Assembly: GCA_021613535.1 (NCBI GenBank)
Contig: CP075497.1
Coordinates: 13,516,001 to 13,580,000 of the forward strand
From: Adineta vaga
Lineage: Eukaryota; Animalia; Rotifera
Length of the DNA: 64,000 nucleotides
Direction of reading: 5' to 3'
The notes under the pieces are model-generated. The model worked only from the letters and a program-made list of their open reading frames with translations, did not search any database and was not told the DNA's origin. The position numbers and the translations under genes are program-made. Shown in pieces: positions 3,001-59,795 of the stretch (position 1 is its first letter; each line of letters starts with the position of its first letter).

Positions 3001-6000
3001 TTAGGAAGTGATTTAACTTGAGCTTTTTGCAAATACATAATCACTGACGTTGTATTAATAATTAATGATTGTCCAATATTCATATGCATTTGCAATGCAT
3101 TTGATAGAATCGATTTTATTTGTTCACATCGATGGACAATAATATTTGCCTATAGACTGATGACTTGAGAAGAAATGTGCTTTTAAAATAAGAATAAACT
3201 CACTAATTTTTGTTGAATATCAAAATTGATATTATCTTCTATTGATTTTTTAGAAAATTCTTGAGATTTACTATCAATATCGGTATCAAGTACAATGCCA
3301 CGTTGTTGTAATTGAATATTGACACCCTGATAATATCAATTTACAATGTTTGATAATTTAAAAGAAAATACTTTATGTAACTTACAGTAAGAATATTGCT
3401 AACACATTGATATAGTTGATTCGTAGCTAATTGTATATTTTCGTAGATAGTTGTATTAGCTAGATTTAATAAAGCTATCGATAATTGATAGCATCTCATT
3501 GATACAATATTCTAAGAATATATAAAATTAGAAACTAATAAAATCAATAATTTTATGCATACTAAACTCTGTTGTGTTAATTGATTTGTTGTCGAAGTAA
3601 GTTGAACTATAGTAGTTGCTTGAAGGATAATACTATTTATATCTGTAATAGTTAAATTACTAAGAAATATTATCAAATAATCTTGAATATTAGCTAATTC
3701 ATTCAGCTCTTCAGTAAATTCAATTAAAGATGATTGATTAATTGATCCGAATGTTTGATTGGTATAGAACTATATTATTCATGAAAATGTTCGTTTACTT
3801 AAAATAATTAAACATTATTTTAACATACTATTTCATTTAATGTTGAAACTGAAATACTAACAACTGGTATATTATCTGGAAAAAAGAACAAATCCAACTT
3901 CATGTCTTAGATTAGCAAATAAACATACTTGAAATCGCTTTCAAAAGATTTTGTTTTGCTTTTTCGTTCAATATTTGAACTATTGAAATTAACTCTTGAC
4001 ATATACCATTCAGATAACCATTGCCATATAAAATATTAATAGATGGATTCGAAGTAATTCTACTATCATTCACTGAATTGTTTAATGTGAATTGAATTGC
4101 ATTCATAAATGTATTGATACTGACTTTATCTGATAAGATCAAAATAGATGACATATTCATTTCAGTAAGACTATCATATCTATCTCGAACTTGAACAATT
4201 AAATGTAAAAGTGTAGAATTTGAATCGTATATTGGCATTCGGACTTGAAATATATTATGAGTTGTAAAACCAAGCATTATACGGTTGGATGGATCAGTTT
4301 TCCATGCTGAAATAAATGCATATCGAAATATTTCTAAGTATACAATATATTCACATACTATAAAACGTATAATCTTTGATACCATCTGAATCAAACCAAT
4401 TTAAACATGTTATAGTGAATATTGTATTTATAGTTCCATTGAATGGATTTGTTGTACAAGTTCCATTTCTAGGTGGGGAATTAACAACAAAATTAATCAA
4501 TCCAATATTTTGTGTTGATTCAATTGAATAAATAACTTCAAATTGCCAATATTGTATATCTGGATACGCATGAAAAAGATCAGTAGTTGCGGTGAAATTT
4601 TTAGAATTTAAACCTTAAATAAATAAGATAATGATAATAGAAAAAAATATATCAAATGTCTTATAGTTACCAAAGAACCAAATATTTTCGTAATCAATAA
4701 TATTATTAAGTAATATCCATTGAACAATATTTGATGATGAATTTTTTAAACTATAATATATATTCCATTGTATATGTGTATTTGATAACAAGTTATTACA
4801 GTTATTAAAACAGAATGAAGTCAATGCTATTTGAGTAGTAGGATTGATTATTTGAAATACATTATTCGATGGACACATGTTCGGAAAAAGGCATCTATTG
4901 AAATAGAAATTTAATAATTATTTAGACTATAGAAATAATACATACCGAACGATGATATCTATCAATGAATTCTCATTTATTCTTACTAATAAATGTCCAG
5001 TATATGATTCTGTAATATTTTGTATATTAGTTAAAACTGCTTTGAAATGATATGTTTGATTTACAGAGAGAGATCCATCAGAAATGAGGAGAGATGATCT
5101 TGATTGATTCGAATCATAATATTCCCATTGTGTCTTATTACCTTTATAATCAATAGAATAGAAATTGCGTTTTATTTCATACAAGTACACATACTTATTT
5201 GTTTAGAGAAACATGATGAATTGAAAAGATTATTTCTTGGATCGTCGATTGGTAATGTTGTTCCATTAATAATCGGAAAATTATCAACATTATAGATTCG
5301 ACAAAAGTATGTATAATGCCAATTCTAAGTAATAATTTTTAATAGATTTATTTTTCTCTTGTAGAATAATAATAACTTACATTAAAATTAAAGTAGGAAA
5401 CATCATGATCAATTGAAAACATGCCTGGATCAAGTATTAACTTTTGTTTTTGTTCTTGTACGATCATTTGAATACCAAATTGAACTAAATTAACTGTGAT
5501 AGGTGATGAAATAATTCTAACATATGTTATTGCTGATGAAACAGATTGAGGTGCAGCCCACATAGTTACAGTCAAATTCATTTGATATAAACCGTATTCC
5601 AATGTTCGTGCTGGAATATAGAGTTCAACAAGTGATATGCTTGTTAATGATTGTGTAAGTTGTATATCGACCGTACAAAGTGGTATACATTTTTTAATTG
5701 TCCACTGACGAATTGTAGCGAGAGATGGTAAACAACTGAGCTGTAATGAGGAACCTATTGAAAATGCTTGACTACGTTGTATAATTAGTGGTGCATTAGG
5801 TAGAGAATTGTTGCGTGCAAATGAAATAATGGCAGGAGAACAATCTAACAAAGAGAAAACACAAGATTTTTTCTATAAGAATTAAATATTTGTATCAATA
5901 TACAATTGTTTATTAATGATGTCGTTGTTGTTTCTCTGGTGGCTGTTGTTGATACCGTTGTTGTAGTAGTACTATTAGTATTAGTGCTACCAATATTTGT

Positions 6001-8174: not shown

Positions 8175-11100
8175 TTGAAATAGTCGAAATACGAGTTACA
8201 TTCCCAACGTCTTACAATGTTATTACATGAGAATATAAATTTCAAGGACTTTATATACAATCTTTCAGTATATATACATTTGAAATAGATAGAATTTAAG
8301 AAGTACAATGAGTAATTCATTTTTTTCTGATATTTATTTTTCAAGTTCTTGTTTCCTGAATTATTCTATGACGTCGCACACGTTTATTTACAAACAATTA
8401 CTGAATAAAGTTTTAAAAAAAAGATTCTTACAAAAATCATAGAATATCTTGTAAAAGAATTCGTTCGTCGATTAACAAAATTATTCGTAAAACAATCTCA
8501 ATCATGAACCAATATGAATTTCAAAATCATTAGTATTGAAGCTTAAAAACAATCTGGTAGAATAATTTATGTTTTTTTTTGTTTAATTAAAATATGAATA
8601 GTGCACTTTTCAATGAAATAGGATATTAAAAAGGAAAAACTGAAATAAATACTCAAGTAATCGATTCTCTAAAACTAATTTTTGCCCTAATAAAAGATAT
8701 AAATAGTTATGAAAATACTGAAAATTCACTATATGGTCACGAGGAAAAAAAGAGTATGTACATATGTAATACTGTTATTTGGTATGGTCATCATATGGTT
8801 ATTTTACAATTCTATCAACGTTAATATTTAGTTAAATGACAGATACAATTCGTGTTTTAAAATATTAACTTATTTCAATGAAAATATATTTAGAATAGTT
8901 TCTGAATATATATCACGTGTCCGATCGTTAAATAATGTGTATAATATATTACCTTAGAGATCGAGAAAGTCATTGCGAACTGTACGTGAACAATATTCAA
9001 CTATGAAGAGTTCGAGAGAGTAAACTAGAATAGGAATATAAAAAGAACTCACAAGATATAAATTAATTAAAGGAAATAAAAAGACTTCAAAGCTGTTTTA
9101 CGCATTATTTACTTTTCCGATTAACAACTCATATCTAGAAAGTTTTTCTTACAAGAAAACAAAACTAATTGAAATTTTAAAACAAAAAAAACATTTTCCA
9201 CCATCTTTTATCATTAGAATTTATTAAGTCGATAGAAATATTTCTTATATTATGATGTTTCAAAATTGATTGATTACAACGATTAGAAAAGTTGTAGTAG
9301 AAAAAAAGAGTCAAACTTTTATGAACGGTTGAGTATTCAAAATAAATTGAAACTTGTTTATTTTTTATAGACATTGTGGATTTTTTCGTAAATAGTACGA
9401 TAAAATCGACCAAAGGATGTTTGTTTAAATAAATAAATAAATTTTTCACTACATGAGTTATTCCTTTTAAAGAGAAAAACAAATTATAATATCTATATTA
9501 AAGTCATAAAACAGGTTTATTCATCTATTTTTGTTCATTTTTTTTCGTTAATCTTATTTTTGCAAAACTTTGACAGATATTTATTCTTATATGGTCGGAT
9601 TGGGCATTGACTGCTCCATCGATCAACATAGTTTGTATCCCATATTTATTCCTTATTCTGATAGAAAAAATAAGAAATTTCGAGAAGAGGTCAAAATAAG
9701 TTTTTTTTCTTATGGAACTTTTGAAGTGTTATAGTTACGTAATTCTAGTAATTATGATTTACTGAGTAAATAAACATTCCTCTTTTTTATATAACTATAG
9801 ATATATCATCTAATTCTCTCTCAAGCTATGCATTTGAATTGAACTTATTCTTTAGATTGTCTATATATTTAAGAAATTCTTAACAGATTTTTTGAAAATT
9901 TTGTGAATTATTTTTTACGACTTGTTTCTACTTATATATCATTGAATAGAATGAGAACTATTCTATTGATTGATGTGATTTCAGTATGGTTAAGCTTTAG
10001 GTTTTAGAGGTAAATTTCGGATTATGCGTTCGAAACTCAAAATACATATCAATGAAAAATGATCGAAATTTTAACAATAAAATAAAATAATTTCTTCAAA
10101 TTCAAACCTGTTTTATCTGTTAGTTTTTATAATTTCTCGTTTGATCAACCTCTTCAATTTGAAAATATTGTCGAATGAATCGATTTTATCTAGTCGGAGA
10201 TATAAACTTGCAAAAGTAGCTTTTAACTTGTTTTAATAGTTTATCAATTCTGTAACTGAAGTATGAATAAGTAAATCAAATACAAACTATACAGATCGAT
10301 AGAGTAGTCAATGATCTATCCAACCAGATAAGTTTACTTATTTCAAATTGATAAAATTTAATAATGTACTCTTAGAATCAATACTTGATATATATATATA
10401 TATATATATAGTAGAAAATCAGTATTGCTGATCAAGAATATTCAATGAATATGAAATCATCTAATGTTAACATGTATTTTTTTATATTGAGAACGAAAAA
10501 ATATTAATCGATATGAATATATCTTATACTTTTCAACTGTTTGATTTATCCTCTAATTTTAAAGCAGAAAATCCGTTCTAATGACCATGACTTCGAATAT
10601 TGATAACGAAAGGATTAAAGACGATTTTTCAATCATGTATATGTGAGTCGTTCTTCAAAGAAACAATAAACAATATTTCGTTATAACAAATACAAATAAT
10701 ATCTATCAAATACGATAAAGTTGATAAATGTATTCGCAAAATCGATTCATTGATAGATAATAAGATTGTTCTTTTATTATTTGATCATATATTAATACCA
10801 AGAACACCACGCCACAACTAAAAATATCTTTCCGAACGTGAACCAAATGAATCAGAAAGATCACTAGAAAGATATTTGGATTTTACTGATCTAATGACGC
10901 TTATGCCAGATATTCAACGATCGGATCTGACGGTTATTGTCAACTGTTATATAGATAGGATTTTGTCATTTATATATAGAGAGGAGAAGGGTTTTTCGAG
11001 TTTACTCAAATTCTTCGAAATTGATCAAAAATAATTTTTTCGATGTGATAAGCAAACACCATGTGTAATTACTCTGAATTACATTATTTTGTTTTTTCTA

Positions 11101-12403
11101 TTGCATAAATTAAATAACAATACAAACAAGAAGATTAGATTATTCGATTTATTTCATTTGATTTTTATTTAGAATATATTTTTCAAGAAATAAATTTGAC
11201 TTCTTTCGAAAAACAGGACTCTTTTGTGTTTTTATTTCATCATCAAATTGTCTATACAAAGCAAATCATATTGGTGTTTGAGAAAAATATTTATCTTTTA
11301 TATTTATATTTGGATTATATTCGAATAATAGACAAGTTTTAAGAATATAAATTGAATATTTTGTATTTGATATAATCGTGAAGATCATTTTGAATCTATA
11401 ATGATAATATTAATCTTAAACTTTCTTTTTAATTAATTATTTCACCAGACATGATCAATCTTTAGTGAAAAATTATCATCAAGCGAACGGTTAATTATAT
11501 AATCAATCTTTTCTTTTACAATTGAAAAATAAAATTCCTCTTTTTTACTTTTAATCATCTCGATTCTTTTCTTCAATATACTAAATGCATTAGAATGTAC
11601 ATATATTATATACTATATCGAAATCATAGAAAAATCTTCATTTCAGAATATAATCTGTATTGTTGTATGTTGCATTTCCTATCACAATAAATATATTCTA
11701 AATAATATTTTCCTTTTGTTAATCTCTTTTCTAATTCAATGAATATTAATAATGATTTATAATATGATAATTCAGGTAAATAATTAGGTAAAAATAAAAG
11801 GTCATTTTTCATTTTTTTTAATATAACATTTTTAATGTGTTGAAGATGACAAAAGACTTGACAAAATCTTTAATGTTCACTCACCCGAGTCATTCGATTC
11901 AAATATATTGACATATTTTATTATTCTCAATGAAACTTTGAATAAATTCAAAATTAAATATATAAATGTATCGAATATGATCGATACATAAATAAAGAGA
12001 TTCTAATCGATACAATATATTATTAAATGTTTTGAAATCATATCTATTTCATATATCATTCATGTTCCTTTTACCAAAAATCAGTTTGAAATTACCTAAA
12101 TTTATTCATAACATCGGATATCATCTCTGGGTCTTTGGTAAAATAAATGGATCTACTGTGGGAGTCGAGCTGACGAAATATTTTAATTGGAAATCAAACA
12201 TTCTAATCATTGAATTACAGACGCCTATCAATGTGATTTCATCTATAACTATACCGTATAGTTTTACATGTATATCATATTAAGGTAAGTAAAAAGAAAA
12301 GAAAATATTTTCGTTCTCTGCATATAATCTTACGTAATTATTATTGGAAGTGACTCATGTTTACATCATTTGTTTTTGAAATAAACAAACAAAAATTATA
12401 TTT

Positions 12404-12474
12404 CGTCACTGCAGGGAATCGAATCCTGGTCTTCGGTTAGACAAACCGTGATACTACCATTGTAATACAATGGC
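12404..12474 (-). tRNA. tRNA-Asp(GTC)-like, probably a pseudogene
   Basis: GCCATTG TA TTAC AATGGTA GTAT C ACGGT TTGTCTA ACCGA AGAC CAGGA TTCGATT CCCTG CAGTGAC G: cloverleaf with GTC anticodon and G73, but one mismatch in each stem; T5 run just downstream. Confidence 0.6.
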
Positions 12475-12784
12475 TTATGTATTCTATGTTCGATAATTAT
12501 AAACCTTTTGAGTGATAATATTTTCTTTACTTATGCTCACTCTATTCGTTGTTTTTCATGAGTCGAGAAAGAACACGTATGACTTAGTAACACAGTTAAC
12601 ATATCTTTGTTTTTCAACTTTCACTTTACAAGTAATAACAACAGATAAATTGATCTTAGGAATATGTTTTACATTGAAATAGAAGAAATATGATCCGCGA
12701 AAAAAGTTATTTTTCTTCTGTACTGCACTTACACATTGCATCATTAATCAATGTAATGATAGAAATATTATTCTAAAAAGTAAA

Positions 12785-12856
12785 TGCATCTACTGGGAAT
12801 CGAACCCAGATATCTTGAGTGGTAGTCAAGTATTCTAGCCATTGAATTATAAATGC
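12785..12856 (-). tRNA. tRNA-Gly with anticodon ACC
   Basis: GCATTTA TA ATTC AATGGCTA GAAT A CTTGA CTACCAC TCAAG ATAT CTGGG TTCGATT CCCAG TAGATGC A: all four stems pair, Gly-type GCAT..ATGCA acceptor, B box GGTTCGATTCC, T5 terminator about 5 nt downstream. Confidence 0.85.
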
Positions 12857-13158
12857 TTATTTTATTTATTTACAGATGATTTACGGGTAAATGTAAAGTA
12901 TGTCAAGAGTGAGAGCATTGACATATCTTCTGCATTACAAATAAAATTGTTAGAAGAATGTATTCTATTTGTTTTTCTTTAAAAATGATTATATAGAAGA
13001 ATTCAAAAATGAATGAAGAAAATTAATTAGTATAAGAAAGTAAAGTGTTTAAATGAGAAGTAAAGAAAGTATTTATCGAAGATATTTTGTTTTATCTTCT
13101 TTGCCGATTCATTTTTGTAATAAATCTTTGATAATATCATCAGTATTATTGGCTAATT

Positions 13159-13214
13159 AGGGTGTGGGTGAGGGTGTGGGTGTGGATATACGTTAAATCA
13201 AAACACTCACACCC
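13159..13214. repeat. Mini-element with head-to-head telomere-type repeats (locus A)
   Basis: AGGGTGTGGGTGAGGGTGTGGGTGTGG - ATATACGTTAAATCAAAA - CACTCACACCC. Confidence 0.75.
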
Positions 13215-13361
13215 ATATTATTCTTAGAACAGAAAGTTGTCTACTATGATTTATTTCATCTAACTGTGGTACAAAAAGTTTTTTTTCACTTGCAATGAGT
13301 CAAAAGAGGAAGAAAGGAAAGTAATTTATTTTTTTTATATTGAATCATCCTATACCTTATC

Positions 13362-13369
13362 TATATAAA
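13362..13369 (+). promoter_or_regulatory. Possible TATA box of the ART-TPR gene
   Basis: TATATAAAG about 55 nt before the ATG at 13422; weak evidence in AT-rich DNA. Confidence 0.3.
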
Positions 13370-13421
13370 GGTACAACGCTTACACTTACATGGGTTTTTC
13401 CTATCTACGAAAACAAAAAAT

Positions 13422-16362
13422 ATGGTGAATAATGAATTGCAATGTATGAAATGTGGTGTATTTAGTACTTTATTTATTGGTAAATCGTGTTATTTTTGTT
13501 GGTATGATTTCGATGCAAGTGATGATGAACGATTGAAAGAACAAGAAACAGAAATATTTCGTGAGAAATCTATTAATCAATGGTATAAAAAATTAAATAT
13601 CGATAGAGTAATGCTTTCATTTTGGTCTCCAATTACTCTAATGCATATTTTTCATGATTGTTTTCGATCTCAATCGACAACAACTGAAATGACTTTAAAA
13701 CTTGCAGCTGGAATATTTCCTGAAAGTGTTGCTTGGCTTAAACGTCTTATTAAAGGTACAGTTCCATGTATATTAACAACCGAAGAAGGACATCGAGTAT
13801 ATAAATTTGGTGCTGGAATTGATCGAACATCAATTTGGTATTATAAAAAAGATCATTGGTATTGGTCAACAGATTGGCCTGTAAATCAATGGATTCAATG
13901 TCCACTTCTTACTGTAACATTTGAACCATGGACAGGACAAATACCACGTGAAGATAATATATTCGTTATACTTTTTTTACATAAATATGCGCCTAATCCA
14001 TCATATACTGATTTAAAACTTGATCAAAAATTCCATCAAAATGTAGATTTTTTTTTATTATGTTTTTTTTTAGATTATTTCTATGAGTGATAAATTAATC
14101 TCAGTTGAAAAAGAAAATTTAGAAGATCTTACTATAATATTACTTGATCAAACTTCTAATGATCTTAATACAAAAACACGTATACGATGTATTATTAATT
14201 TTCTTAAAATATTTACTGATATAAATATTTGTCTTGATTATATTCATTCCATTCCTAATGAAAATATATTTATTATTGTATCTGGTCGATTAAGTTCTAT
14301 ATTAATATCATTAATTGAAGATTTACCACAAATTTTACATGTTTATATATTTTGTTACGATATACAAAAATATTCTTCGTTAAAATCAATAATTCAAGTA
14401 TTTAGTGATCAAGAATCATTATATAATCAACTTTCTAAAGATGCTAAACAATTTTATGCAACTCATTCGAACAAAAATTTCTTATACAACAGAAAAATGT
14501 TTACGTAATTTAACAAATGAAAGAGGTATATTTTTTGGTTTCGATTATTTATAACAGCCCTTCTTGATATACCACCATCCGATGAAGCTAAAGTAGATCT
14601 TCTTAAATTAGCTCGAAAATTCTATGTAGATAATGATCTTGAATTATTAAGAATTGATGATTTTGAAAAAACATACGAATCAATTGAAGCATTAAAATGG
14701 TATACAAGTGATTCATTTGCTTATCGATTATTAAATAAAGCAATTCGAACAGAAAATATTGATTTACTTTTTTCATGTCGATTTTTTATTCGTGATTTAC
14801 ATCAATAACTTCAATCATTACATAAACCATATATAGAACGTATTTATTCGTATGGTCTAGATAAATATAATGTGTATATCATGGACAATTAATGACTTTA
14901 GATGATTTTACAAAATTAAAAGATAATGTTGGAAAATTAATATCAATTAATTCATTTCTATCGACAAGTGTGAATTCTGATATTGCTTTAATTTATGCAG
15001 GGATAAAAAAACAAATCCAACAATGGAATCAGTACTTTTTCAAATTATAATCAATATTGATGAAAAATCAGATATATATCAACATCCGTTTGCTGATATT
15101 TCAGAATATAGTCTGTTTAAACAAGAACAAGAAGTGCTTTTTTCTTTGACTTCGATATTTCAAATCGAAGATATTAGTGAAAGATCGTAAGTAATTTAGT
15201 GTATCAGAATAATGATCTTTATTAATTCGTATTCTAGAGATAATGTGCGTGGTTAGTTAAAATGATATTCATTGAAAACATACCAGAAATAGAAGAAATA
15301 CATAAATTAAGTTCACATTTAGGAATTCGTCAAGATCAAACGACAAGTATGCTGTATCTTGTTGATCTTCTTTTCTTAATGAATGATCACAGTCGTGCAA
15401 AAGTTTTTTGTCAAAAGGCTTTAAGTGAAGCTCATGATAATTGGTCTCTCGCTCTTACATGTTACAATCAATTGGGTCGAGCATATGAACAAGAACCAGA
15501 ATTAGCACTATGGTCGTGTGAAAAAGCATTAGAACTTCAGTTACGATATAATCCAGCGGATCATCATACCTTGGCGTCAATATATAATAATATAGACCTT
15601 GTACATCTTCGACTTCAGTCTGATAAACAAGTGACAACTAATTACTATGAAAAAGCTTTAGAAATATGTATATCTATTCCTGATGAAAATGAGATAAAGT
15701 GGGATTTGTACGCTACTATTTTGAATAATCTGGCGACTTTTCAACTATATGACGATATTGATCTAGTTTTGGAAAAAGAACATCTTGCTCTCGATATTCG
15801 ATTAAAATATTTACCATTATCACATCCAGTAGTGGGAACAACGCACAGAATACTTGCCACTTTTTATTCACTAAAAGCTGAATACGATAAAGCATTCATT
15901 CATTTTAATGAAGCACTTCATATCAAACTTAAGTACTCGCCTAATAATGATTCATCAATATACCAATTATATCACGATATAAGTCTCAGTACTTTGTATA
16001 AAGGAGATTATGAGATCAATGCTGGACATGAAGCAGCTGCTAAAGTTAGTTATGAAACAGCACTTAAGTTTAGTTCTGATGCAATCGATCACCTATCATC
16101 GAATGAATTATCGACATCAACGAAGTATTCATTATTATGTTATTGTGTCAATATTTGTGGCGTCCTTTATACGCGACTTAACCGTTTCAATGATGCAATA
16201 GAATGCTTTAACAAATTAATTAACATTCTTAATCAACATTTACCAACTAACGATCCACTTCATATTGCATTCTTCAGAAATAGAGGCAGAGTTTTTACAT
16301 TACAAGGTAATCTAAACACTGGTATGGAATACTATGAAAATGCAATCAAATTTTGTAAATAG
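13422..16362 (+). pseudogene. Unknown N-terminal domain + ADP-ribosyltransferase + TPR gene, disrupted and 3'-truncated by the duplication junction
   Basis: ART motifs WYTSDSFAYRLLNKAIR, YHGQ, SINSFLSTS and EQEVLF lie in shifting frames with TAA at 14806-14808; TPR ORF 15262-16362 ends FCK* at the junction. Confidence 0.85.
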
Positions 16363-19300
16363 TACGATAAAATCGACCAAAGGATGTTTGTTTAAATAAA
16401 TAAATAAATTTTTCACTACATGAGTTATTCCTTTTAAAGAGAAAAACAAATTATAATATCTATATTAAAGTCATAAAACAGGTTTATTCATCTATTTTTG
16501 TTCATTTTTTTTCGTTAATCTTATTTTTGCAAAACTTTGACAGATATTTATTCTTATATGGTCGGATTGGGCATTGACTGCTCCATCGATCAACATAGTT
16601 TGTATCCCATATTTATTCCTTATTCTGATAGAAAAAATAAGAAATTTCGAGAAGAGGTCAAAATAAGTTTTTTTTCTTATGGAACTTTTGAAGTGTTATA
16701 GTTACGTAATTCTAGTAATTATGATTTACTGAGTAAATAAACATTCCTCTTTTTTATATAACTATAGATATATCATCTAATTCTCTCTCAAGCTATGCAT
16801 TTGAATTGAACTTATTCTTTAGATTGTCTATATATTTAAGAAATTCTTAACAGATTTTTTGAAAATTTTGTGAATTATTTTTTACGACTTGTTTCTACTT
16901 ATATATCATTGAATAGAATGAGAACTATTCTATTGATTGATGTGATTTCAGTATGGTTAAGCTTTAGGTTTTAGAGGTAAATTTCGGATTATGCGTTCGA
17001 AACTCAAAATACATATCAATGAAAAATGATCGAAATTTTAACAATAAAATAAAATAATTTCTTCAAATTCAAACCTGTTTTATCTGTTAGTTTTTATAAT
17101 TTCTCGTTTGATCAACCTCTTCAATTTGAAAATATTGTCGAATGAATCGATTTTATCTAGTCGGAGATATAAACTTGCAAAAGTAGCTTTTAACTTGTTT
17201 TAATAGTTTATCAATTCTGTAACTGAAGTATGAATAAGTAAATCAAATACAAACTATACAGATCGATAGAGTAGTCAATGATCTATCCAACCAGATAAGT
17301 TTACTTATTTCAAATTGATAAAATTTAATAATGTACTCTTAGAATCAATACTTGATATATATATATATATATATATAGTAGAAAATCAGTATTGCTGATC
17401 AAGAATATTCAATGAATATGAAATCATCTAATGTTAACATGTATTTTTTTATATTGAGAACGAAAAAATATTAATCGATATGAATATATCTTATACTTTT
17501 CAACTGTTTGATTTATCCTCTAATTTTAAAGCAGAAAATCCGTTCTAATGACCATGACTTCGAATATTGATAACGAAAGGATTAAAGACGATTTTTCAAT
17601 CATGTATATGTGAGTCGTTCTTCAAAGAAACAATAAACAATATTTCGTTATAACAAATACAAATAATATCTATCAAATACGATAAAGTTGATAAATGTAT
17701 TCGCAAAATCGATTCATTGATAGATAATAAGATTGTTCTTTTATTATTTGATCATATATTAATACCAAGAACACCACGCCACAACTAAAAATATCTTTCC
17801 GAACGTGAACCAAATGAATCAGAAAGATCACTAGAAAGATATTTGGATTTTACTGATCTAATGACGCTTATGCCAGATATTCAACGATCGGATCTGACGG
17901 TTATTGTCAACTGTTATATAGATAGGATTTTGTCATTTATATATAGAGAGGAGAAGGGTTTTTCGAGTTTACTCAAATTCTTCGAAATTGATCAAAAATA
18001 ATTTTTTCGATGTGATAAGCAAACACCATGTGTAATTACTCTGAATTACATTATTTTGTTTTTTCTATTGCATAAATTAAATAACAATACAAACAAGAAG
18101 ATTAGATTATTCGATTTATTTCATTTGATTTTTATTTAGAATATATTTTTCAAGAAATAAATTTGACTTCTTTCGAAAAACAGGACTCTTTTGTGTTTTT
18201 ATTTCATCATCAAATTGTCTATACAAAGCAAATCATATTGGTGTTTGAGAAAAATATTTATCTTTTATATTTATATTTGGATTATATTCGAATAATAGAC
18301 AAGTTTTAAGAATATAAATTGAATATTTTGTATTTGATATAATCGTGAAGATCATTTTGAATCTATAATGATAATATTAATCTTAAACTTTCTTTTTAAT
18401 TAATTATTTCACCAGACATGATCAATCTTTAGTGAAAAATTATCATCAAGCGAACGGTTAATTATATAATCAATCTTTTCTTTTACAATTGAAAAATAAA
18501 ATTCCTCTTTTTTACTTTTAATCATCTCGATTCTTTTCTTCAATATACTAAATGCATTAGAATGTACATATATTATATACTATATCGAAATCATAGAAAA
18601 ATCTTCATTTCAGAATATAATCTGTATTGTTGTATGTTGCATTTCCTATCACAATAAATATATTCTAAATAATATTTTCCTTTTGTTAATCTCTTTTCTA
18701 ATTCAATGAATATTAATAATGATTTATAATATGATAATTCAGGTAAATAATTAGGTAAAAATAAAAGGTCATTTTTCATTTTTTTTAATATAACATTTTT
18801 AATGTGTTGAAGATGACAAAAGACTTGACAAAATCTTTAATGTTCACTCACCCGAGTCATTCGATTCAAATATATTGACATATTTTATTATTCTCAATGA
18901 AACTTTGAATAAATTCAAAATTAAATATATAAATGTATCGAATATGATCGATACATAAATAAAGAGATTCTAATCGATACAATATATTATTAAATGTTTT
19001 GAAATCATATCTATTTCATATATCATTCATGTTCCTTTTACCAAAAATCAGTTTGAAATTACCTAAATTTATTCATAACATCGGATATCATCTCTGGGTC
19101 TTTGGTAAAATAAATGGATCTACTGTGGGAGTCGAGCTGACGAAATATTTTAATTGGAAATCAAACATTCTAATCATTGAATTACAGACGCCTATCAATG
19201 TGATTTCATCTATAACTATACCGTATAGTTTTACATGTATATCATATTAAGGTAAGTAAAAAGAAAAGAAAATATTTTCGTTCTCTGCATATAATCTTAC

Positions 19301-19368
19301 GTATTATTATTGAAGTGACTCATGTTTACATCATTTGTTTTTGAAATAAACAAACAAAAATTATATTT

Positions 19369-19439
19369 CGTCACTGCAGGGAATCGAATCCTGGTCTTCG
19401 GTTAGACAAACCGTGATACTACCATTGTAATACAATGGC
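19369..19439 (-). tRNA. tRNA-Asp(GTC)-like, duplicate copy
   Basis: Identical to 12404-12474. Confidence 0.6.
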
Positions 19440-19749
19440 TTATGTATTCTATGTTCGATAATTATAAACCTTTTGAGTGATAATATTTTCTTTACTTATG
19501 CTCACTCTATTCGTTGTTTTTCATGAGTCGAGAAAGAACACGTATGACTTAGTAACACAGTTAACATATCTTTGTTTTTCAACTTTCACTTTACAAGTAA
19601 TAACAACAGATAAATTGATCTTAGGAATATGTTTTACATTGAAATAGAAGAAATATGATCCGCGAAAAAAGTTATTTTTCTTCTGTACTGCACTTACACA
19701 TTGCATCATTAATCAATGTAATGATAGAAATATTATTCTAAAAAGTAAA

Positions 19750-19821
19750 TGCATCTACTGGGAATCGAACCCAGATATCTTGAGTGGTAGTCAAGTATTC
19801 TAGCCATTGAATTATAAATGC
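19750..19821 (-). tRNA. tRNA-Gly(ACC), duplicate copy
   Basis: Identical to 12785-12856. Confidence 0.85.
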
Positions 19822-20375
19822 TTATTTTATTTATTTACAGATGATTTACGGGTAAATGTAAAGTATGTCAAGAGTGAGAGCATTGACATATCTTCTGCAT
19901 TACAAATAAAATTGTTAGAAGAATGTATTCTATTTGTTTTTCTTTAAAAATGATTATATAGAAGAATTCAAAAATGAATGAAGAAAATTAATTAGTATAA
20001 GAAAGTAAAGTGTTTAAATGAGAAGTAAAGAAAGTATTTATCGAAGATATTTTGTTTTATCTTCTTTGCCGATTCATTTTTGTAATAAATCTTTGATAAT
20101 ATCATCAGTATTATCGGCTAATTGTCTGATGAACTTATTGAATACGTTAAATCAAAACACTCACACCCATATTATTCTTAGAACAGAAAGTTGTCTACTA
20201 TGATTTATTTCATCTAACTGTGGTACAAAAAGTTTTTTTTCACTTGCAATGAGTCAAAAGAGGAAGAAAGGAAAGTAATTTATTTTTTTTATATTGAATC
20301 ATCCTATACCTTATCTATATAAAGGTACAACGCTTACACTTACATGGGTTTTTCCTATCTACGAAAACAAAAAAT

Positions 20376-23300
20376 ATGGTGAATAATGAATTGCAATGTA
20401 TGAAATGTGGTGTATTTAGTACTTTATTTATTGGTAAATCGTGTTATTTTTGTTGGTATGATTTCGATGCAAGTGATGATGAACGATTGAAAGAACAAGA
20501 AACAGAAATATTTCGTGAGAAATCTATTAATCAATGGTATAAAAAATTAAATATCGATAGAGTAATGCTTTCATTTTGGTCTCCAATTACTCTAATGCAT
20601 ATTTTTCATGATTGTTTTCGATCTCAATCGACAACAACTGAAATGACTTTAAAACTTGCAGCTGGAATATTTCCTGAAAGTGTTGCTTGGCTTAAACGTC
20701 TTATTAAAGGTACAGTTCCATGTATATTAACAACCGAAGAAGGACATCGAGTATATAAATTTGGTGCTGGAATTGATCGAACATCAATTTGGTATTATAA
20801 AAAAGATCATTGGTATTGGTCAACAGATTGGCCTGTAAATCAATGGATTCAATGTCCACTTCTTACTGTAACATTTGAACCATGGACAGGACAAATACCA
20901 CGTGAAGATAATATATTCGTTATACTTTTTTTACATAAATATGCGCCTAATCCATCATATACTGATTTAAAACTTGATCAAAAATTCCATCAAAATGTAG
21001 ATTTTTTTTTATTATGTTTTTTTTTAGATTATTTCTATGAGTGATAAATTAATCTCAGTTGAAAAAGAAAATTTAGAAGATCTTACTATAATATTACTTG
21101 ATCAAACTTCTAATGATCTTAATACAAAAACACGTATACGATGTATTATTAATTTTCTTAAAATATTTACTGATATAAATATTTGTCTTGATTATATTCA
21201 TTCCATTCCTAATGAAAATATATTTATTATTGTATCTGGTCGATTAAGTTCTATATTAATATCATTAATTGAAGATTTACCACAAATTTTACATGTTTAT
21301 ATATTTTGTTACGATATACAAAAATATTCTTCGTTAAAATCAATAATTCAAGTATTTAGTGATCAAGAATCATTATATAATCAACTTTCTAAAGATGCTA
21401 AACAATTTTATGCAACTCATTCGAACAAAAATTTCTTATACAACAGAAAAATGTTTACGTAATTTAACAAATGAAAGAGGTATATTTTTTGGTTTCGATT
21501 ATTTATAACAGCCCTTCTTGATATACCACCATCCGATGAAGCTAAAGTAGATCTTCTTAAATTAGCTCGAAAATTCTATGTAGATAATGATCTTGAATTA
21601 TTAAGAATTGATGATTTTGAAAAAACATACGAATCAATTGAAGCATTAAAATGGTATACAAGTGATTCATTTGCTTATCGATTATTAAATAAAGCAATTC
21701 GAACAGAAAATATTGATTTACTTTTTTCATGTCGATTTTTTATTCGTGATTTACATCAATAACTTCAATCATTACATAAACCATATATAGAACGTATTTA
21801 TTCGTATGGTCTAGATAAATATAATGTGTATATCATGGACAATTAATGACTTTAGATGATTTTACAAAATTAAAAGATAATGTTGGAAAATTAATATCAA
21901 TTAATTCATTTCTATCGACAAGTGTGAATTCTGATATTGCTTTAATTTATGCAGGGATAAAAAAACAAATCCAACAATGGAATCAGTACTTTTTCAAATT
22001 ATAATCAATATTGATGAAAAATCAGATATATATCAACATCCGTTTGCTGATATTTCAGAATATAGTCTGTTTAAACAAGAACAAGAAGTGCTTTTTTCTT
22101 TGACTTCGATATTTCAAATCGAAGATATTAGTGAAAGATCGTAAGTAATTTAGTGTATCAGAATAATGATCTTTATTAATTCGTATTCTAGAGATAATGT
22201 GCGTGGTTAGTTAAAATGATATTCATTGAAAACATACCAGAAATAGAAGAAATACATAAATTAAGTTCACATTTAGGAATTCGTCAAGATCAAACGACAA
22301 GTATGCTGTATCTTGTTGATCTTCTTTTCTTAATGAATGATCACAGTCGTGCAAAAGTTTTTTGTCAAAAGGCTTTAAGTGAAGCTCATGATAATTGGTC
22401 TCTCGCTCTTACATGTTACAATCAATTGGGTCGAGCATATGAACAAGAACCAGAATTAGCACTATGGTCGTGTGAAAAAGCATTAGAACTTCAGTTACGA
22501 TATAATCCAGCGGATCATCATACCTTGGCGTCAATATATAATAATATAGACCTTGTACATCTTCGACTTCAGTCTGATAAACAAGTGACAACTAATTACT
22601 ATGAAAAAGCTTTAGAAATATGTATATCTATTCCTGATGAAAATGAGATAAAGTGGGATTTGTACGCTACTATTTTGAATAATCTGGCGACTTTTCAACT
22701 ATATGACGATATTGATCTAGTTTTGGAAAGAGAACATCTTGCTCTCGATATTCGATTAAAATATTTACCATTATCACATCCAGTAGTGGGAACAACGCAC
22801 AGAATACTTGCCACTTTTTATTCACTAAAAGCTGAATACGATAAAGCATTCATTCATTTTAATGAAGCACTTCATATCAAACTTAAGTACTCGCCTAATA
22901 ATGATTCATCAATATACCAATTATATCACGATATAAGTCTCAGTACTTTGTATAAAGGAGATTATGAGATCAATGCTGGACATGAAGCAGCTGCTAAAGT
23001 TAGTTATGAAACAGCACTTAAGTTTAGTTCTGATGCAATCGATCACCTATCATCGAATGAATTATCGACATCAACGAAGTATTCATTATTATGTTATTGT
23101 GTCAATATTTGTGGCGTCCTTTATACGCGACTTAACCGTTTCAATGATGCAATAGAATGCTTTAACAAATTAATTAACATTCTTAATCAACATTTACCAA
23201 CTAACGATCCACTTCATATTGCATTCTTCAGAAATAGAGGCAGAGTTTTTACATTACAAGGTAATCTAAACACTGGTATGGAATACTATGAAAATGCAAT

Positions 23301-23544
23301 CAAATTTTGTGATGAAATAGGTTTAAAGAATTCTTTTGAAAAAGCTCAAGTTTACTTAAATCTTGGAGAATGGTATGAACTTTCTGAACAAAGAGATTTA
23401 GGAATTGAATATTATGAAATGGCAATTGAACTCGGGAATAGACTTAAAAACCCAGGTCATCCACTTTTTCTACGGTGTAGAAAAGGTATAGAAAGACTGA
23501 AATCAACAGCCATTGTACAAGTCGAAGAAGCTTCTTGGCTTTAA
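20376..23544 (+). pseudogene. ART-TPR gene, full-length copy with the same ART-domain lesions
   Basis: Same frameshifts, TAA at 21760-21762; TPR ORF 22216-23544 (442 aa) is open to its natural stop. Confidence 0.85.
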
Positions 23545-24715: not shown

Positions 24716-25225
24716 TTAAATTATATCATCAATAATAATTATCTGCCTTGTCAATTTGTTTTCTGTTACAAATATAATAAATACCAACACGTGCAAAAAT
24801 AAATTCTTTCATTCAATTCGTAGAATAATATAACTTTGTGCACAAAAAAACAAAACATTGTTTTTGATGATCGATAGATGATTTATTTTTATTGGTATAA
24901 TAATAAATCTTTCTTCTAAACTCATGCAATAACATATCTTGATCTTGTATATATCTTTCAGATGAGAAACATGTCTGCTATATTTCTCTGACAACTTACA
25001 ATCTAATCATATTTTGGAATTTTACTGATGAGTTTGAATTTATTCGAAATTTATCTGTCAAATATCTTCAGCGAAAACGATATACGTCTTAAATAGCTTA
25101 TTTTGACATTTATTTTATTTAGTAGAATACATAAAATGTTGAAAAAAATTTATTGACTCGTAATAAAGCCAGAACGCTGATATAAAAGGACAAGAAATTC
25201 AGACAGTTAGTACAAAATCAATAAG

Positions 25226-25798
25226 ATGCGTTTATTAACAGTATGTGTAATGTTCTGCTCAATGATGATTTTAATTGATGCTACTGTTGTAGATGTGGCG
25301 TCTGATTGTTCAAAATATGGAATCAAATCACCACAATGTATTAGTTCTTCTGCGCAATATCTCTATAATGTTTTTATTGGTATAGCTGGATGGAGTGGAG
25401 GTACACGAACAAAGAATGCTTTTGGTGGACAATGTACAGGTGAATATGATGGAGGTTGGCATAATTGGCAGTGGAAATATGACGCAAGTGTGATCTGTCC
25501 ACATGTTTCCAGTTCTATTAGGGGATATTCCACGAAACATAAAAGTCGTGATGGTGCCATTAATGGTGCGATGCATGATTATACGACAAAAGTTACTCAA
25601 ACTGGTCTACTGACTTCTCGACACATAGCGTCATACAATTTAGGATATCTACTTCCCGAAACCACAACTACTACCACAAATTTTCCTCAATCATTATCAT
25701 CACATTCTTTTCAAACGAATAAAGCGCAACAATTGGCATTAAGCTATACCATGATTATTACACTGCTGATAGTATTAATATTCTTATTTGGAGAGTAA
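25226..25798 (+). CDS. Anti-lipopolysaccharide-factor (ALF)-like protein with C-terminal membrane/GPI anchor
   Basis: Signal peptide; C-x20-CP loop followed by IRG.S...SRDGA...A..DY..K....GLLT as in ALFs; Thr/Ser linker; hydrophobic C-terminus. TATAAAAG at ~25181. Confidence 0.7.
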   Translation: MRLLTVCVMFCSMMILIDATVVDVASDCSKYGIKSPQCISSSAQYLYNVFIGIAGWSGGTRTKNAFGGQCTGEYDGGWHNWQWKYDASVICPHVSSSIRGYSTKHKSRDGAINGAMHDYTTKVTQTGLLTSRHIASYNLGYLLPETTTTTTNFPQSLSSHSFQTNKAQQLALSYTMIITLLIVLIFLFGE

Positions 25799-30602: not shown

Positions 30603-31250
30603 ATGGCGTTGACTGCATCAAATGAAATTTCACTTTTGCCGTACGATATTAATGATCCTCGAAAGATATTGAAAACTTTAATTCGTTGTATTATGCGAAC
30701 ATTCTATGAAGTACCGAAATCTCTTGTTATTGAATATATTTATCATCATGAGCCCATTAAACTACAAGATTTAGCTGAATATTTATGTTTAGATCCGAAA
30801 ACACTTCACTCATACATTGAAGACTTTAAAAAGGATAAATTTATCATAGAGGATCATTGTCGTGAGTTAAATGAAAGTGCAGCTCGTCAACATAGTCAAG
30901 ATCAATATTATTATAAAATTGATACGACAACATTTATTAATGTTGTTCGATATCGGTTAATTCATATGCAATTGAATGTTGAAAATCTTGAACGACAACA
31001 CACGTGTAAATCATTGAATTATAAATGTGAACAATGTGCAAAAGAATATACAGAATTAGGTTTTGGTAAATTACGTATTCCAATGCAAGATTTACATGTT
31101 TGTTCAATGTGTGGTGGAGTCGTACATGAAGAAGTTGAAACAACAGTGACAAATCGACAAACAATTAGTCGCCGTTTATTTTATGAAGAAATGAAACCAA
31201 TTTATGATATTTTGGAAAAAATTGATGAAATTATGAAACAAGAACAATGA
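30603..31250 (+). CDS. TFIIE-alpha-like protein (winged helix + zinc ribbon), intronless and C-terminally truncated
   Basis: LIRCIMRTFY, YYYKIDTTTFINVVRYRL, CEQC..YTEL...CSMCGGVVHEE, FYEEMKPIYDIL resemble the GTF2E1 N-terminal half; coding-like remnant with stops continues past TGA. Confidence 0.8.
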   Translation: MALTASNEISLLPYDINDPRKILKTLIRCIMRTFYEVPKSLVIEYIYHHEPIKLQDLAEYLCLDPKTLHSYIEDFKKDKFIIEDHCRELNESAARQHSQDQYYYKIDTTTFINVVRYRLIHMQLNVENLERQHTCKSLNYKCEQCAKEYTELGFGKLRIPMQDLHVCSMCGGVVHEEVETTVTNRQTISRRLFYEEMKPIYDILEKIDEIMKQEQ

Positions 31251-32033: not shown

Positions 32034-32124
32034 GAGGGTGTGGATGGGTGGATGTGAGTTTAGGTGAGGGTGAGGGTGAGGGTGTGTGCGCGAGTATTAA
32101 TCTTTCTGCCACCCACACCCACCC
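32034..32124. repeat. Mini-element with head-to-head telomere-type repeats (locus C)
   Basis: ...GGTGAGGGTGAGGGTGAGGGTGTG - TGCGCGAGTATTAATCTTTCTG - CCACCCACACCCACCC. Confidence 0.8.
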
Positions 32125-32889: not shown

Positions 32890-32954
32890 GGGTGTGGATG
32901 TGCGTGTTTATATTTCTCCTTCAATTATCTTCACTCACAGCCACATCCACACCC
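32890..32954. repeat. Mini-element with head-to-head telomere-type repeats (locus D)
   Basis: Perfect 13-bp inverted repeat GGGTGTGGATGTG (32890-32902) / CACATCCACACCC (32942-32954). Confidence 0.7.
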
Positions 32955-33181
32955 TTTATTCGATATAAAGACATGGAATACGAAATTATTTTTCATCACT
33001 CTTATCAAGATTCAAAAATCAAATAAATTTTATTATAATAGACAATGGTTGTGTATTTTTATTGGATAAACTTTGTCATAATATGTTAGGCAAAAAATCT
33101 GTATATGTCATGAATAAGATAATAATGAAATATGCATTGTAATAGATAAGATATGAAAATATTTTATTTTTTCATATGTAA

Positions 33182-35504: not shown

Positions 35505-38500
35505 TTTTTTTTATATAGGCTATTCAATAGAGAATTTTAGGCTCTACAGCTTTCCAATGCATCATTTGTTTCCAACTTGCTCGTTAGAAATGATAAAAGT
35601 CCTTTTTTGATGAACGTAAAAATCACATATGTCTTGCAATAGTACAGAATTTTAAAAAATTCAATAAAAGTAAAGGAATCTGAAGAAATTTAACCTTATT
35701 GTGTTTAGATGTTCATGACTATTATTTTGTGCTCTGGTCCTAGTGTATTTATGAGAAAATATGCTGTTTGTTACTTAATCGATTACCCTAAGCTTCGCAT
35801 AAAATAACAGCATTTTATTGAATATGAAGGCAAACGAGTTAAACAAACAAATACTGTATTTTTTCTTCTTCTTTATTTAGAAAACATTCAACATTTTATG
35901 TTGAAGGTAATAAACGTCGAGTTCATTAGAACATCCCAGCTCGATATTCCATCTCTTCTTCTTCAGCCAATTGTGCGTCAAGTCGTTGTTCTTCCTTACG
36001 TTTTCTAATGATTTCTTGTCGTTGAACATTATGTTCGGCTTTTGCAACTCGTTTACTATCTTTTCCTAGAAGAGTATTTAAAAATTCTTCCGTAATAGAT
36101 ATACCATCTTGATCGACCACGATTAAAGAAAATTGTCGCAACTACTGCAGCACCATGAATTGATCGATATCCATGATATTTTGCCTTAGGTAAAATGGAC
36201 CAAAGAACGGAATTAATCGATTCGTTCGCATTTTGGATTGCACCTCGTAGACATCGTTGTAATAGTGACAGATCAATTAATGTGTTTATCATAGGTGTTA
36301 AAATTTCCAAGAAAACCTACAGATTATGAACACACTTTGAAATTAAAAGAAAAACATGTTAGTCTCACTGGATCAAGGCGTTTCGTGTCTTTGACCAAAT
36401 CCGTTCGTTCTTTTAACGGAAGATATTTATCTATTTGATAAGAACACCACGAATCGAGTCCCTTGGGACATAACGAATGTTGCAGTTCACGATCGGATTG
36501 CTTGATATTGTGCATAAAGGAAGCTTGACAATTACGTTGCATAAGTATGACAACATCATCTTCATCCATATCTACAATGAAATCTTAACTTGTAACCGTC
36601 GAAAGTGATCAATGTACCTTTAGCTAATTGACTACTTCGTCGAATTGCCAGACCATAATAATCGGACAGTTTTTGTCATACGACCATTACTACCACCATA
36701 TGGTTTGCCGTCAGATAAACGACGTCGAGTACGAGTTTTACGAACCATCGGTGCACTATTTTCTTTTCCGGGTACTGTTACGATTAAATTATTTTCTTCT
36801 CGTTCATTTTCGAAACCCGTATATCGACTTTTTAATGTTTTTAGTTGACTGGAAATTCTCTTTTTAACGTGATTAATACAGTCTTCTTTTGTAACCACAT
36901 AATACGAATATTGAGTAGATGAAACATCCAATTGAACAGTACTGTTAAGATTAGGCAAGTTTACATTAGTCGAATTCGTAGTTGTTCGATCATTAGCAAT
37001 ATCTGAACGTGTACGATCATCACTTAATAAATTAACATATGTGTGCTTTACAGCTTCATAGGCACTCGAATCAACGTCGCTAATTACATTCGTATAACGA
37101 AGTCCTAAATATCAACATTACAACGAACACATGGTATTTGGTCATAGTACCTTTTTCAAGAGATCGTTCGAAAATTTTTCTTGCGCCTTCCTTTTCCATC
37201 CCGCCCGCAGTATCATCCCATGTTTTGAAACATTTCTTCCGATGATTTGAAAACTTAGGAAAAAATGATCAGTCTTACAAAGGATAAATGCCGATGATCC
37301 TACCCATTTTCTGAATTCAGTTGTTGTCAATGTACGTTGCCTCGTTTCACAAGCTTCACACCATGTACTTAGAGTTTCGAAATCTAAACAGTAACCAGAA
37401 TCAGCATCGATCAAAAAAACAACACCACACATAGAATGATGACCTCGTTTTTTCCAAGTACCATCAAGAGATACAGTCATGTTCAAGATCGTTTTAGAAT
37501 CACATCCTTGACTGAGGCGGATTTTGCCAATTATAGACAGGAAATCGGCATGAGTGAAATCAAACAACTGGTCGTACCTAGATGAAATAATATACGACTA
37601 AATAGAAAAAGTTCGTTAACTCACAGATTATGAACTTATTTATAAAAATTTGACCGATGAAGCATACTCACTCCCAACAGTGACATAACAAATTGAATTC
37701 CATCATGACCAATACCACTTATGGCACTTGCCGTATATAAATGTTGATTAGGTTCTTGTAACTGATTCATAGATTGACCGGGAAAATTTGTTAAATCAGT
37801 AGTTCGCTCACTGATTGAACATTTTAAACCATTTTTGTGAAATAAACCAGAATTCTTTTCTTCGTCAATAATAACCTCAAGTCGACCACCAGGACATATG
37901 TGAGCAGTAGCAATACATTCTTTAAGGTGATTGACATCGAAGATTTGACCCGATCCCTCAGTAATTTCATGACTTGAAGCGCTGTAAATGAACATCCTCA
38001 GTATAATTACTATAAAAATATGTCCAATCTTTCAATAGACAATCGAATTTTCTGAAAACTACGTGAAGTTTGTTTTCCATCAGAAGTTATGGTTTTGTCG
38101 ATGTCATTTGATGGATTCATATTGTTGACCGAATTTTGAGATGTTTTCAGATTAAAACTCGTCGAGCGAGACGTTGATCCCAGAACTCTATCTGACGTAT
38201 GAACAGGCGAAGATTTATCAAGATCTTCATCAGCAAAGCTTTCATCTGATAACATTTTTTATACCAAACCAATTAAGGCATAACGGTTAACGGTCACTTG
38301 TCAAATTTTACGTCAAAATCTCTCGTTTTCTATTCGACGAAATAAATCATCCTATCGTTGATAAAAATTATTCAATTTCTTCCAATAACTTGGGAGGTTA
38401 ACAAAATTTCAATTTTTTGTAGGTTTGTGAAAAAATACGGGCATAAATTGTAACTCATTATAGAGATCACCAGTTCTCGTGATTTTTCCTTTGACCCATC

Positions 38501-39117: not shown

Positions 39118-39905
39118 TTAATGAGTCATCTGACATGATGGAAATTGAAGAAAACTCTTCTTCAGAGAACTTTGAAATCGTTGATTCCAATTCAAGGAAA
39201 ATTCTTGATCGTTTTCTTTTTACATTTGGTTTTGATAATGTCATCGACACTAATCAAATTTCAAGTCAAGCTCGAATAATCAAAGATTTAATTGAAAAAG
39301 CACCGTTTATAACTATGCAAAATAAAGATAAATCTGTGCGGTTAGAAACACGAGCAGAATATCCCGTTCAAACATTTAATTCAGTTTATGCCCGAACACG
39401 TACGACTGCAGATGGAAACTGTTTATATAGTTCTCTTTCGATATTGAATGTTGGATCTGAGAAACTAACACATTCAATGAGATTGCTGGCACTTAATGCA
39501 ATGATCAATAATATGGATTATTTCGGAACACTTTGTACTATAATAGGATATACACTTGAAGAGCAGTTGGAAAACACTGCTACGCATACAATATGGGGAG
39601 GAGAAGTGCAAATTCAAGCTTTATCTGTAGCACTATCTCATCCTATATATTCTTATGTAAAGTTTAACAATGATCCAAACAGAATAGGTTATATTCCATC
39701 AAATATCAGTTTACAGGAATTAATCGATCGATTTAATAAGCAAACAGCAGGTGGTCATTTAATATATCTTGGATATGAATCAGACAGAAACAAAATAGGA
39801 CTTTGTGTTTATTACACCGGTACACATTATGATGCTCTTTTGCCTTTTCAACATAATCCTCCTCAGCTTGTACCGCATTTTGACCTAATAAACATGACTT
39901 TATAA
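39118..39905 (+). CDS. OTU cysteine protease domain from a Helentron, 5'-truncated but open
   Basis: ADGNCLYSSLS, WGGEVQIQALS, THYDALL; collinear with the OTU region at 60975-61760 (minus). Confidence 0.8.
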
Positions 39906-59790: not shown

Positions 59791-59795
59791 TTTTT

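What the first reader, a model, noticed from the sequence alone, without database searches (positions are those of the whole stretch)
12785..12856. Structurally intact tRNA-Gly with the normally avoided ACC anticodon
Seen: all stems pair even though the body is far more AT-rich than a standard Gly tRNA, the 15-48 tertiary pair reads A-T rather than G-C, and A box, B box and T5 terminator are present. Such compensated changes argue for selection on structure. Known: eukaryotes normally use G34 (GCC) for the Gly box and essentially lack A34/I34 Gly tRNAs. Inference: if edited to I34 it would read GGT/GGC/GGA, and GGT and GGA dominate Gly codons in this window; alternatively it is of foreign or element origin.
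Basis: partly seen in the sequence, partly recalled or inferred. Interest (0 to 1): 0.7.

Follow-up and report, generated by a model that had tools for sequence, protein, structure and literature searches.

The report
Rotifer glycine tRNA with forbidden anticodon
A bdelloid rotifer carries a perfectly folded glycine tRNA gene with the anticodon ACC, which reviews call absent from cells; it is likely a minor, redundant oddity limited to this lineage, but the search for its relatives showed that many giant viruses carry the same anticodon.

Summary
The gene is real. It lies on the minus strand at 12785-12856, scores 66.8 bits against Rfam tRNA, has all 21 stem pairs intact, and reads ACC unchanged in contigs of 4 of 4 runs laid. 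An identical copy (19750-19821) comes from a recent 7-kb tandem duplication. The host is a bdelloid rotifer (Adineta). The idea of a selected, inosine-edited decoder is not supported. Three other bdelloids have no Gly-ACC among 543, 984 and 978 predicted tRNAs and keep 11-22 GCC genes. The loop is the C32/C38 loop shown to be a poor ADAT substrate. The GGT/GGA bias is generic to this AT-rich window. A decayed Asp-type tRNA next door and published A. ricciae tables point to a low-scoring second pool of tRNAs in which wobble bases drift. Best reading: a divergent Gly tRNA with a late G34A change, chargeable, mostly unedited and redundant. Foreign origin stays open: IMG/VR holds 24 distinct intact Gly-ACC genes on 40 contigs (14 named giant-virus MAGs), but none is closer than 75% and none has this loop. 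Expression and editing were not testable.

The parts
12785..12856 (-). tRNA-Gly(ACC), copy 1; 72 nt, no intron, no encoded CCA; anticodon at 12823-12821; G1-C72, C2-G71, A73, C32/C38
   Evidence: sequence confirmed
19750..19821 (-). tRNA-Gly(ACC), copy 2, identical to copy 1
12775..12779 (-). T5 run, candidate RNA polymerase III terminator
   Evidence: chance rate 8% per 20 nt
12404..12474 (-). Decayed 71-nt Asp(GTC)-type tRNA, member of a multicopy family in this genome (second copy 19369-19439)
   Evidence: Rfam 41.1 bits with broken pairs; not called by ARAGORN; no cloverleaf; variant contigs in 4 of 4 runs
9384..16356 (.). Tandem duplication unit 1; ends inside the TPR gene and truncates it
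   Evidence: 99.66% identical to unit 2; differences listed
16351..23310 (.). Tandem duplication unit 2; runs into the complete TPR gene
13422..14087 (+). Neighbouring 222-aa ORF of no known family, 74% identical to an Adineta steineri protein; not viral
13160..13187 (.). Short GT-rich high-copy repeat present in unit 1 only

Best explanation
This is an intact glycine tRNA gene with anticodon ACC, doubled by a recent tandem duplication in a bdelloid rotifer; it likely belongs to a low-copy, divergent second pool of rotifer tRNAs, likely gained A34 late from a G34 ancestor, and, if transcribed, would be charged with glycine but left mostly unedited, reading mainly GGU as a redundant helper of the ordinary GCC family. 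Shown: structure, sequence, the two copies, absence of ACC in three other bdelloids. From the literature: Gly-ACC is charged by GlyRS and poorly edited by ADAT. Inferred: membership of the second pool, late G34A change, transcription by polymerase III, near-neutrality.
For: (1) The loop is identical to the human GCC-derived G34A test tRNA, with C32 and C38. 0 of 24 viral Gly-ACC genes have C32/C38; 23 of 24 have A38. (2) That test tRNA is charged by GlyRS but only about 42% deaminated, and A38 favours deamination (PMC4928997). (3) No ACC row, pseudogenes included, in A. ricciae (543 tRNAs), R. macrura (984) or R. magnacalcarata (978); they keep 17, 22 and 11 GCC genes. (4) A. ricciae has a low-scoring second pool: one 72-nt Gly-GCC at 52.8 bits (the other 16 are 71 nt, 69.7 bits) and seven 71-nt Asp-GTC at 45-53 bits (the other 14 score 74.3). 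These lengths match the two genes here. (5) Wobble bases drift in these pools: a 71-nt Asp-ATC in A. ricciae and a GCC, GCC, TCC, TCC array of 71-nt genes in R. macrura. (6) The neighbour is decaying and the flanking ORF is rotifer-type. (7) A single genomic Gly-ACC had little cost in E. coli (bioRxiv 10.64898/2026.05.15.725136).
Against: The A. ricciae link rests on length and score only; that table gives no sequences. The host's own Gly-GCC sequence and genome-wide tRNA count were not available, so host descent was judged against the human gene (51 of 72 positions by eye), which is no closer than the best viral genes (75-79%). Five doubly compensated pairs are a lot for an unselected paralogue. 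All copies seen keep ACC with no GCC variant. Overexpressed Gly-ACC impaired E. coli growth, so neutrality is not assured. No expression data.
Confidence: 0.5

Rival explanations
1. The gene, perhaps with the Asp-type neighbour and the rest of the second pool, was imported from a giant virus or another AT-rich foreign donor that already carried ACC.
For: 52 of 56 viral loci from two pattern scans carry an ARAGORN Gly-ACC: 24 distinct sequences on 40 contigs, 14 of them GVMAG giant-virus bins. In a tree of 90 sequences the rotifer gene falls in a 30-row set (99/95) made mostly of giant-virus-type genes, apart from the bacterial-type ones. A10 (5 of 24) and A15-T48 (4 of 24) occur among the viral genes. 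Bdelloids take up much foreign DNA (established knowledge).
Against: No close relative: best 75% to ACC genes, 76-79% to TCC genes; an exact anticodon-arm pattern found nothing in IMG/VR. The tree holds no animal tRNA, so any eukaryote-type gene would land in that set. The C32/C38 loop is animal-type. The flanking ORF and the Asp-type gene have no viral match.
Confidence: 0.22
2. The gene is already silent: a recently inactivated copy whose stems have not yet decayed.
For: A10 weakens the A box; the neighbour in the same unit is decayed; the unit carries a repeat insertion and a truncated TPR gene; the centroid fold is unstable.
Against: No stem lesion, intact B box, T5 run and Gly identity bases. 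A stretch of 552 bp around the gene shows no variant, while a patch just downstream differs at 9 of 128 sites in a minority copy.
Confidence: 0.17
3. It is a selected, I34-edited Gly isoacceptor that serves the GGU/GGA-rich codons of this AT-rich genome.
For: Fully compensated body; ACC fixed in all copies seen; bdelloids have A34 tRNAs for Ala, Val, Pro, Thr, Arg, Leu, Ser and Ile, so ADAT is likely present; the changed anticodon stem could alter ADAT recognition (inference).
Against: Absent from three relatives; only two loci seen; loop known to resist ADAT; GCC and TCC families already read GGU/GGC and GGA; the codon bias is generic.
Confidence: 0.1
4. ACC is a base-call or assembly error.
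For: The window has a few probable single-base indel errors elsewhere in the duplication.
Against: Contigs of 4 of 4 runs from four studies match the whole gene exactly; both copies agree.
Confidence: 0.01

Closest known systems
Eukaryotic cytosolic tRNA-Gly(GCC) (Rfam RF00005; human Gly-GCC-2-1 as printed in PMC4928997)
   Same: G1-C72, C2-G71, A3-U70, A73, D stem 11-13, 4-nt variable loop, C32/C38 loop, T loop.
   Different: A34; 8 of 21 stem pairs changed (5 on both sides); A15-U48; one extra D-loop base; 39% GC.
Engineered tRNA-Gly(ACC) of Saint-Leger et al. 2016 (PMC4928997) and Raval et al. 2026 (bioRxiv 10.64898/2026.05.15.725136)
   Same: Same anticodon; same loop as the human construct.
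   Different: Natural gene with a long-diverged body; function untested.
'Prohibited' A34 tRNA genes of large animal tRNA sets, such as the 20 Gly-ACC genes of cow (PMC5372738)
   Same: Sporadic A34 genes beside a large G34 family, of unknown expression.
   Different: Here in a genome group with modest tRNA sets (about 540-980 predictions in relatives), with a fully compensated body.
Gly-ACC tRNA genes of giant viruses and phages in IMG/VR (found here)
   Same: ACC anticodon, intact stems, A73 and no CCA in 19 of 24.
   Different: At most 75% identical; A38 in 23 of 24; often beside a TCC or GCC paralogue from which ACC seems to have arisen repeatedly.

Membership tests
tRNA (RF00005) | Cloverleaf above the family cut-off | tested here: met
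   66.8 bits vs 29; ARAGORN; MFE cloverleaf
Eukaryotic tRNA-Gly | C35, C36, G1-C72, C2-G71, A73 | tested here: met
   Sequence; the identity set is from established knowledge
Eukaryotic tRNA-Gly | G, U or C at position 34 | tested here: not met
   A34
Eukaryotic tRNA-Gly | Transcribed, processed, CCA-tailed, glycylated | not testable with these tools
   No RNA holder listed; no raw reads
ADAT substrates (I34 tRNAs) | A34 in a four-codon box | tested here: met
ADAT substrates (I34 tRNAs) | Loop context that ADAT deaminates | tested here: inconclusive
   The loop equals the poorly edited human construct; the rotifer enzyme and this stem are untested
ADAT substrates (I34 tRNAs) | Replaces the G34 family across the lineage | tested here: not met
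   Relatives keep 11-22 GCC genes and have no ACC; this genome's own GCC count is unknown
Virus-derived tRNA | Close viral relative or viral genes in the flanks | tested here: not met
tRNA-derived SINE or high-copy repeat | Many dispersed variant copies with a tail or body | tested here: not met
   One contig per run across the gene and no variant pieces, unlike the Asp-type neighbour; the tool's filter can hide records

The most novel reading that the evidence does not exclude
Gly-ACC is not forbidden: giant viruses have evolved and kept it many times, and this rotifer holds a working, domesticated copy as part of a whole second, foreign set of tRNAs. That would make it the first animal Gly-ACC decoder under selection, and a natural test of why cells avoid this anticodon.
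Probability: 0.12. Interest if true: 0.8.

Novelty: new variant of a known kind. Interest (0 to 1): 0.4.

Why it matters
Reviews list Gly-ACC as universally missing and explain this by poor ADAT editing and an unstable loop (PMC4928997, PMC8007984). A natural, fully paired ACC gene in a laboratory-culturable animal, plus 24 natural viral versions with covarying stems, gives real substrates for testing that explanation. As it stands the rotifer gene looks like a local exception, so it matters mainly as test material and as a pointer to an undescribed second tRNA pool in Adineta.

Tried and rejected
No whole genome is held, so no genome-wide count. No RNA holder listed; this says nothing about expression; no cover over the Gly gene in 4 of 4 runs (a hole proves nothing). 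The only metagenome scan gave 2 hits, both Gly-TCC in 31-33-gene tRNA arrays, not rotifer, so no orthologue was obtained. The GTDB scan gave 1 hit, a bacterial Gly-CCC. Phage BLAST: 133 weak records, at best 74-77% over most of the query, mixed isotypes. The flanking ORF has no Pfam family, no viral locus and no Atlas hit at 0.9 or more. Two viral scans for the Asp-type neighbour found nothing. Considered and rejected: origin from Val-AAC by an A35C change (acceptor stem and 4-nt variable loop are Gly-type); bacterial origin (A73, tree position); bdelloid-wide replacement of GCC by ACC. Literature searches found no report of Gly-ACC in rotifers or in giant viruses (passages of PMC6409571); most subscription papers are not searched. 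Earlier findings: nothing by sequence, by rotifer words or in this genome.

Full report
Observation. ARAGORN and Rfam both call a 72-nt tRNA-Gly with anticodon ACC on the minus strand at 12785-12856 (66.8 bits, E 2.4e-12, no non-standard pair). The lowest-energy fold is the cloverleaf. All 21 stem pairs hold, the 15-48 pair is A-T and GC is 39%. An identical gene lies at 19750-19821, because 9384-16356 and 16351-23310 are a 99.66% identical tandem duplication. A decayed 71-nt Asp(GTC)-type tRNA lies 310 nt downstream in each unit. A T5 run follows the gene by 6-10 nt, but 8% of local 20-nt windows have one.

Is base 34 real? Thirteen of 24 listed runs hold the stretch, from four studies. In one search, 0 of 4 runs had contigs over the gene. 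In one search, 4 of 4 other runs had a contig spanning it with no difference; three of these were not flagged as a possible source, although all carry the same species label and may be one clonal line. A variant patch nearby splits about 3:1 by depth in the two deep runs (121:42, 55:22), a weak hint of four haploid copies and hence a real duplication.

Host. The gene content (TPR, NHL-like, Kelch-like, LRR and PKD-like ORFs by Pfam or by eye) and the homologues of the flanking ORF (74% to Adineta steineri, 62% to an A. vaga protein) place the window in a bdelloid rotifer of the genus Adineta, likely A. vaga.

What selection acted on. Compared by eye with the human Gly-GCC printed in PMC4928997, 51 of 72 positions match. 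Thirteen stem substitutions change 8 pairs, 5 on both sides, and break none; the 15-48 pair is also compensated. A control that places 13 random changes in these stems keeps all pairs in 3 of 200000 trials (it starts from the rotifer stems, and the true ancestor is unknown). So the body spent a long time as a working tRNA. That does not date the anticodon, which is one base from GCC.

Relatives. The tRNAscan-SE 1.3.1 tables of Nowell et al. 2018 (PMC5916493, S9 Data; I read the three summary blocks, the whole A. ricciae table, parts of the R. macrura table, and all Gly and ACC rows) list no ACC gene or pseudogene in A. ricciae (543 tRNAs), R. macrura (984) or R. magnacalcarata (978), and 17, 22 and 11 GCC genes. 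A. vaga is not in that file. A. ricciae shows a second, low-scoring pool: one 72-nt Gly-GCC at 52.8 bits among 17, seven 71-nt Asp-GTC at 45-53 bits among 21, and a 71-nt Asp-ATC. These lengths equal those of the two genes here. The Asp-type gene here also belongs to a multicopy family. R. macrura has an array of 71-nt Gly genes reading GCC, GCC, TCC, TCC, whereas its usual TCC gene is 72 nt, so wobble changes in duplicated copies do occur. The table has no sequences, so orthology is inferred from length and score only.

Foreign origin. Two pattern scans of IMG/VR returned 22 and 34 loci; 52 of these 56 hold an ARAGORN Gly-ACC, on 40 different contigs (12 found twice), 14 named as giant-virus bins, with 24 distinct sequences. 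Their stems covary (my parser required mostly paired stems) and several group with a TCC or GCC gene of the same contig. The rotifer gene falls with the giant-virus-type genes in a 90-row tree, but that tree has few columns and no animal tRNA. Best identities are 75% to ACC genes and 76-79% to TCC genes. The C32/C38 loop occurs in 0 of 24 viral ACC genes and in 1 of all 89 other Gly genes parsed, but matches the animal GCC loop. Neither the flanking ORF nor the Asp-type gene has a viral match. Import is possible but not shown.

How it would work. Saint-Leger et al. 2016 (PMC4928997; I read parts 1-2 of 6: introduction, results, discussion and the start of the methods) found that human Gly-ACC with this same loop is charged by GlyRS, is only partly deaminated by ADAT (42.5% in their preparation), and is edited better with A38. 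Raval et al. 2026 (bioRxiv 10.64898/2026.05.15.725136; abstract, passages, section 14) found a single genomic Gly-ACC largely harmless in E. coli and overexpression harmful. The likely path is therefore: polymerase III transcription from internal boxes (inferred; A10 may weaken it), processing and CCA addition (inferred), glycylation (from the literature), little I34 (from the literature), and decoding of mainly GGU by unmodified A34 (established wobble rules). GGU is 45% of Gly codons here, but every four-codon box tested is similarly T/A-biased, and GCC and TCC families already cover these codons. Two loci beside such families would add little.

Comparison with what is known. Ehrlich et al. 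2021 (PMC8007984; passages, section 4) list Gly-ACC as universally missing and say phages lack the same genes as bacteria. Maraia and Arimbasseri 2017 (PMC5372738; passages, section 12) note 20 predicted Gly-ACC genes in cow, of unknown function. PMC6409571 and PMC13015402 (passages only) added nothing on this point; their supplements were not read and could list viral or yeast Gly-ACC genes. My searches found no report for rotifers or giant viruses.

Verdict. Real, intact and verified; a new variant of a known kind. Most likely a lineage-limited, redundant G34A version of a divergent rotifer Gly tRNA (0.5), with import (0.22), silence (0.17) and a selected I34 decoder (0.10) as rivals. Interest 0.4, part of it owed to the viral Gly-ACC genes and the second tRNA pool that turned up on the way.

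Noticed in passing
L001-L022, L145-L178 (IMG/VR): 24 distinct intact tRNA-Gly(ACC) genes on 40 viral contigs, 14 named giant-virus bins; median pairwise identity 63%, stems covary, often grouped with a TCC or GCC paralogue of the same contig, which suggests repeated origin. This runs against 'universally missing' and may be more interesting than the rotifer gene.
   Followed up: partly
L054:2715-2785 and 3296-3366: A giant-virus-type contig (TFIIB-like and patatin-like ORFs by my reading of the translations) keeps Gly-ACC and Gly-GCC side by side.
   Followed up: partly
window 12404-12474 and 19369-19439: A decayed 71-nt Asp-type tRNA belongs to a multicopy family with variant copies and shared flanks elsewhere in the genome. 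It starts with G1-C72, which I recall as unlike usual animal Asp tRNAs.
   Followed up: partly
PMC5916493 S9 Data (not in the window): Bdelloids carry large odd tRNA-like families: 72-78-nt 'Ser-GGA' (47, 325, 389 copies), Thr-GGT (21, 15, 36), Asn-ATT (24 in R. magnacalcarata), and in A. ricciae a low-scoring second set of many isotypes, including intronless Tyr and 75-nt Leu. I found no paper describing them.
   Followed up: partly
window 12504-12597: A minority copy (about one in four by contig depth) differs at 9 of 128 sites between the two tRNAs while the flanks are identical, as after gene conversion.
   Followed up: no
window 13160-13215, 23599, 32036-32124, 32890-32960, 44133: Short GT-rich inverted-repeat element, MITE-like and high-copy in the genome; polymorphic between the two duplication units.
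   Followed up: partly
window 13422-14087 (+): 222-aa protein with N-terminal cysteine pairs and a Trp-rich C-terminal part; only 4 homologues, no family; one homologue is fused to further sequence.
   Followed up: partly
window 25211-25798 (+): ORF with an anti-lipopolysaccharide factor/scygonadin domain, PF11630, E 4e-8.
   Followed up: no
window 30603-31250 (+): Intronless 215-aa TFIIE-alpha-like ORF (PF02002).
   Followed up: no
window 39118-39954 and 60918-61763: 85%-identical inverted pair of ORF fragments whose translation looks OTU-protease-like by eye; fragments of transposons or non-LTR retroelements at 36600-38000, 50761-52014 and 58300-59800.
   Followed up: no
L143, L144: Metagenome contigs with arrays of 33 and 31 tRNA genes, including A34 genes for Leu, Pro, Thr and Ile.
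   Followed up: no
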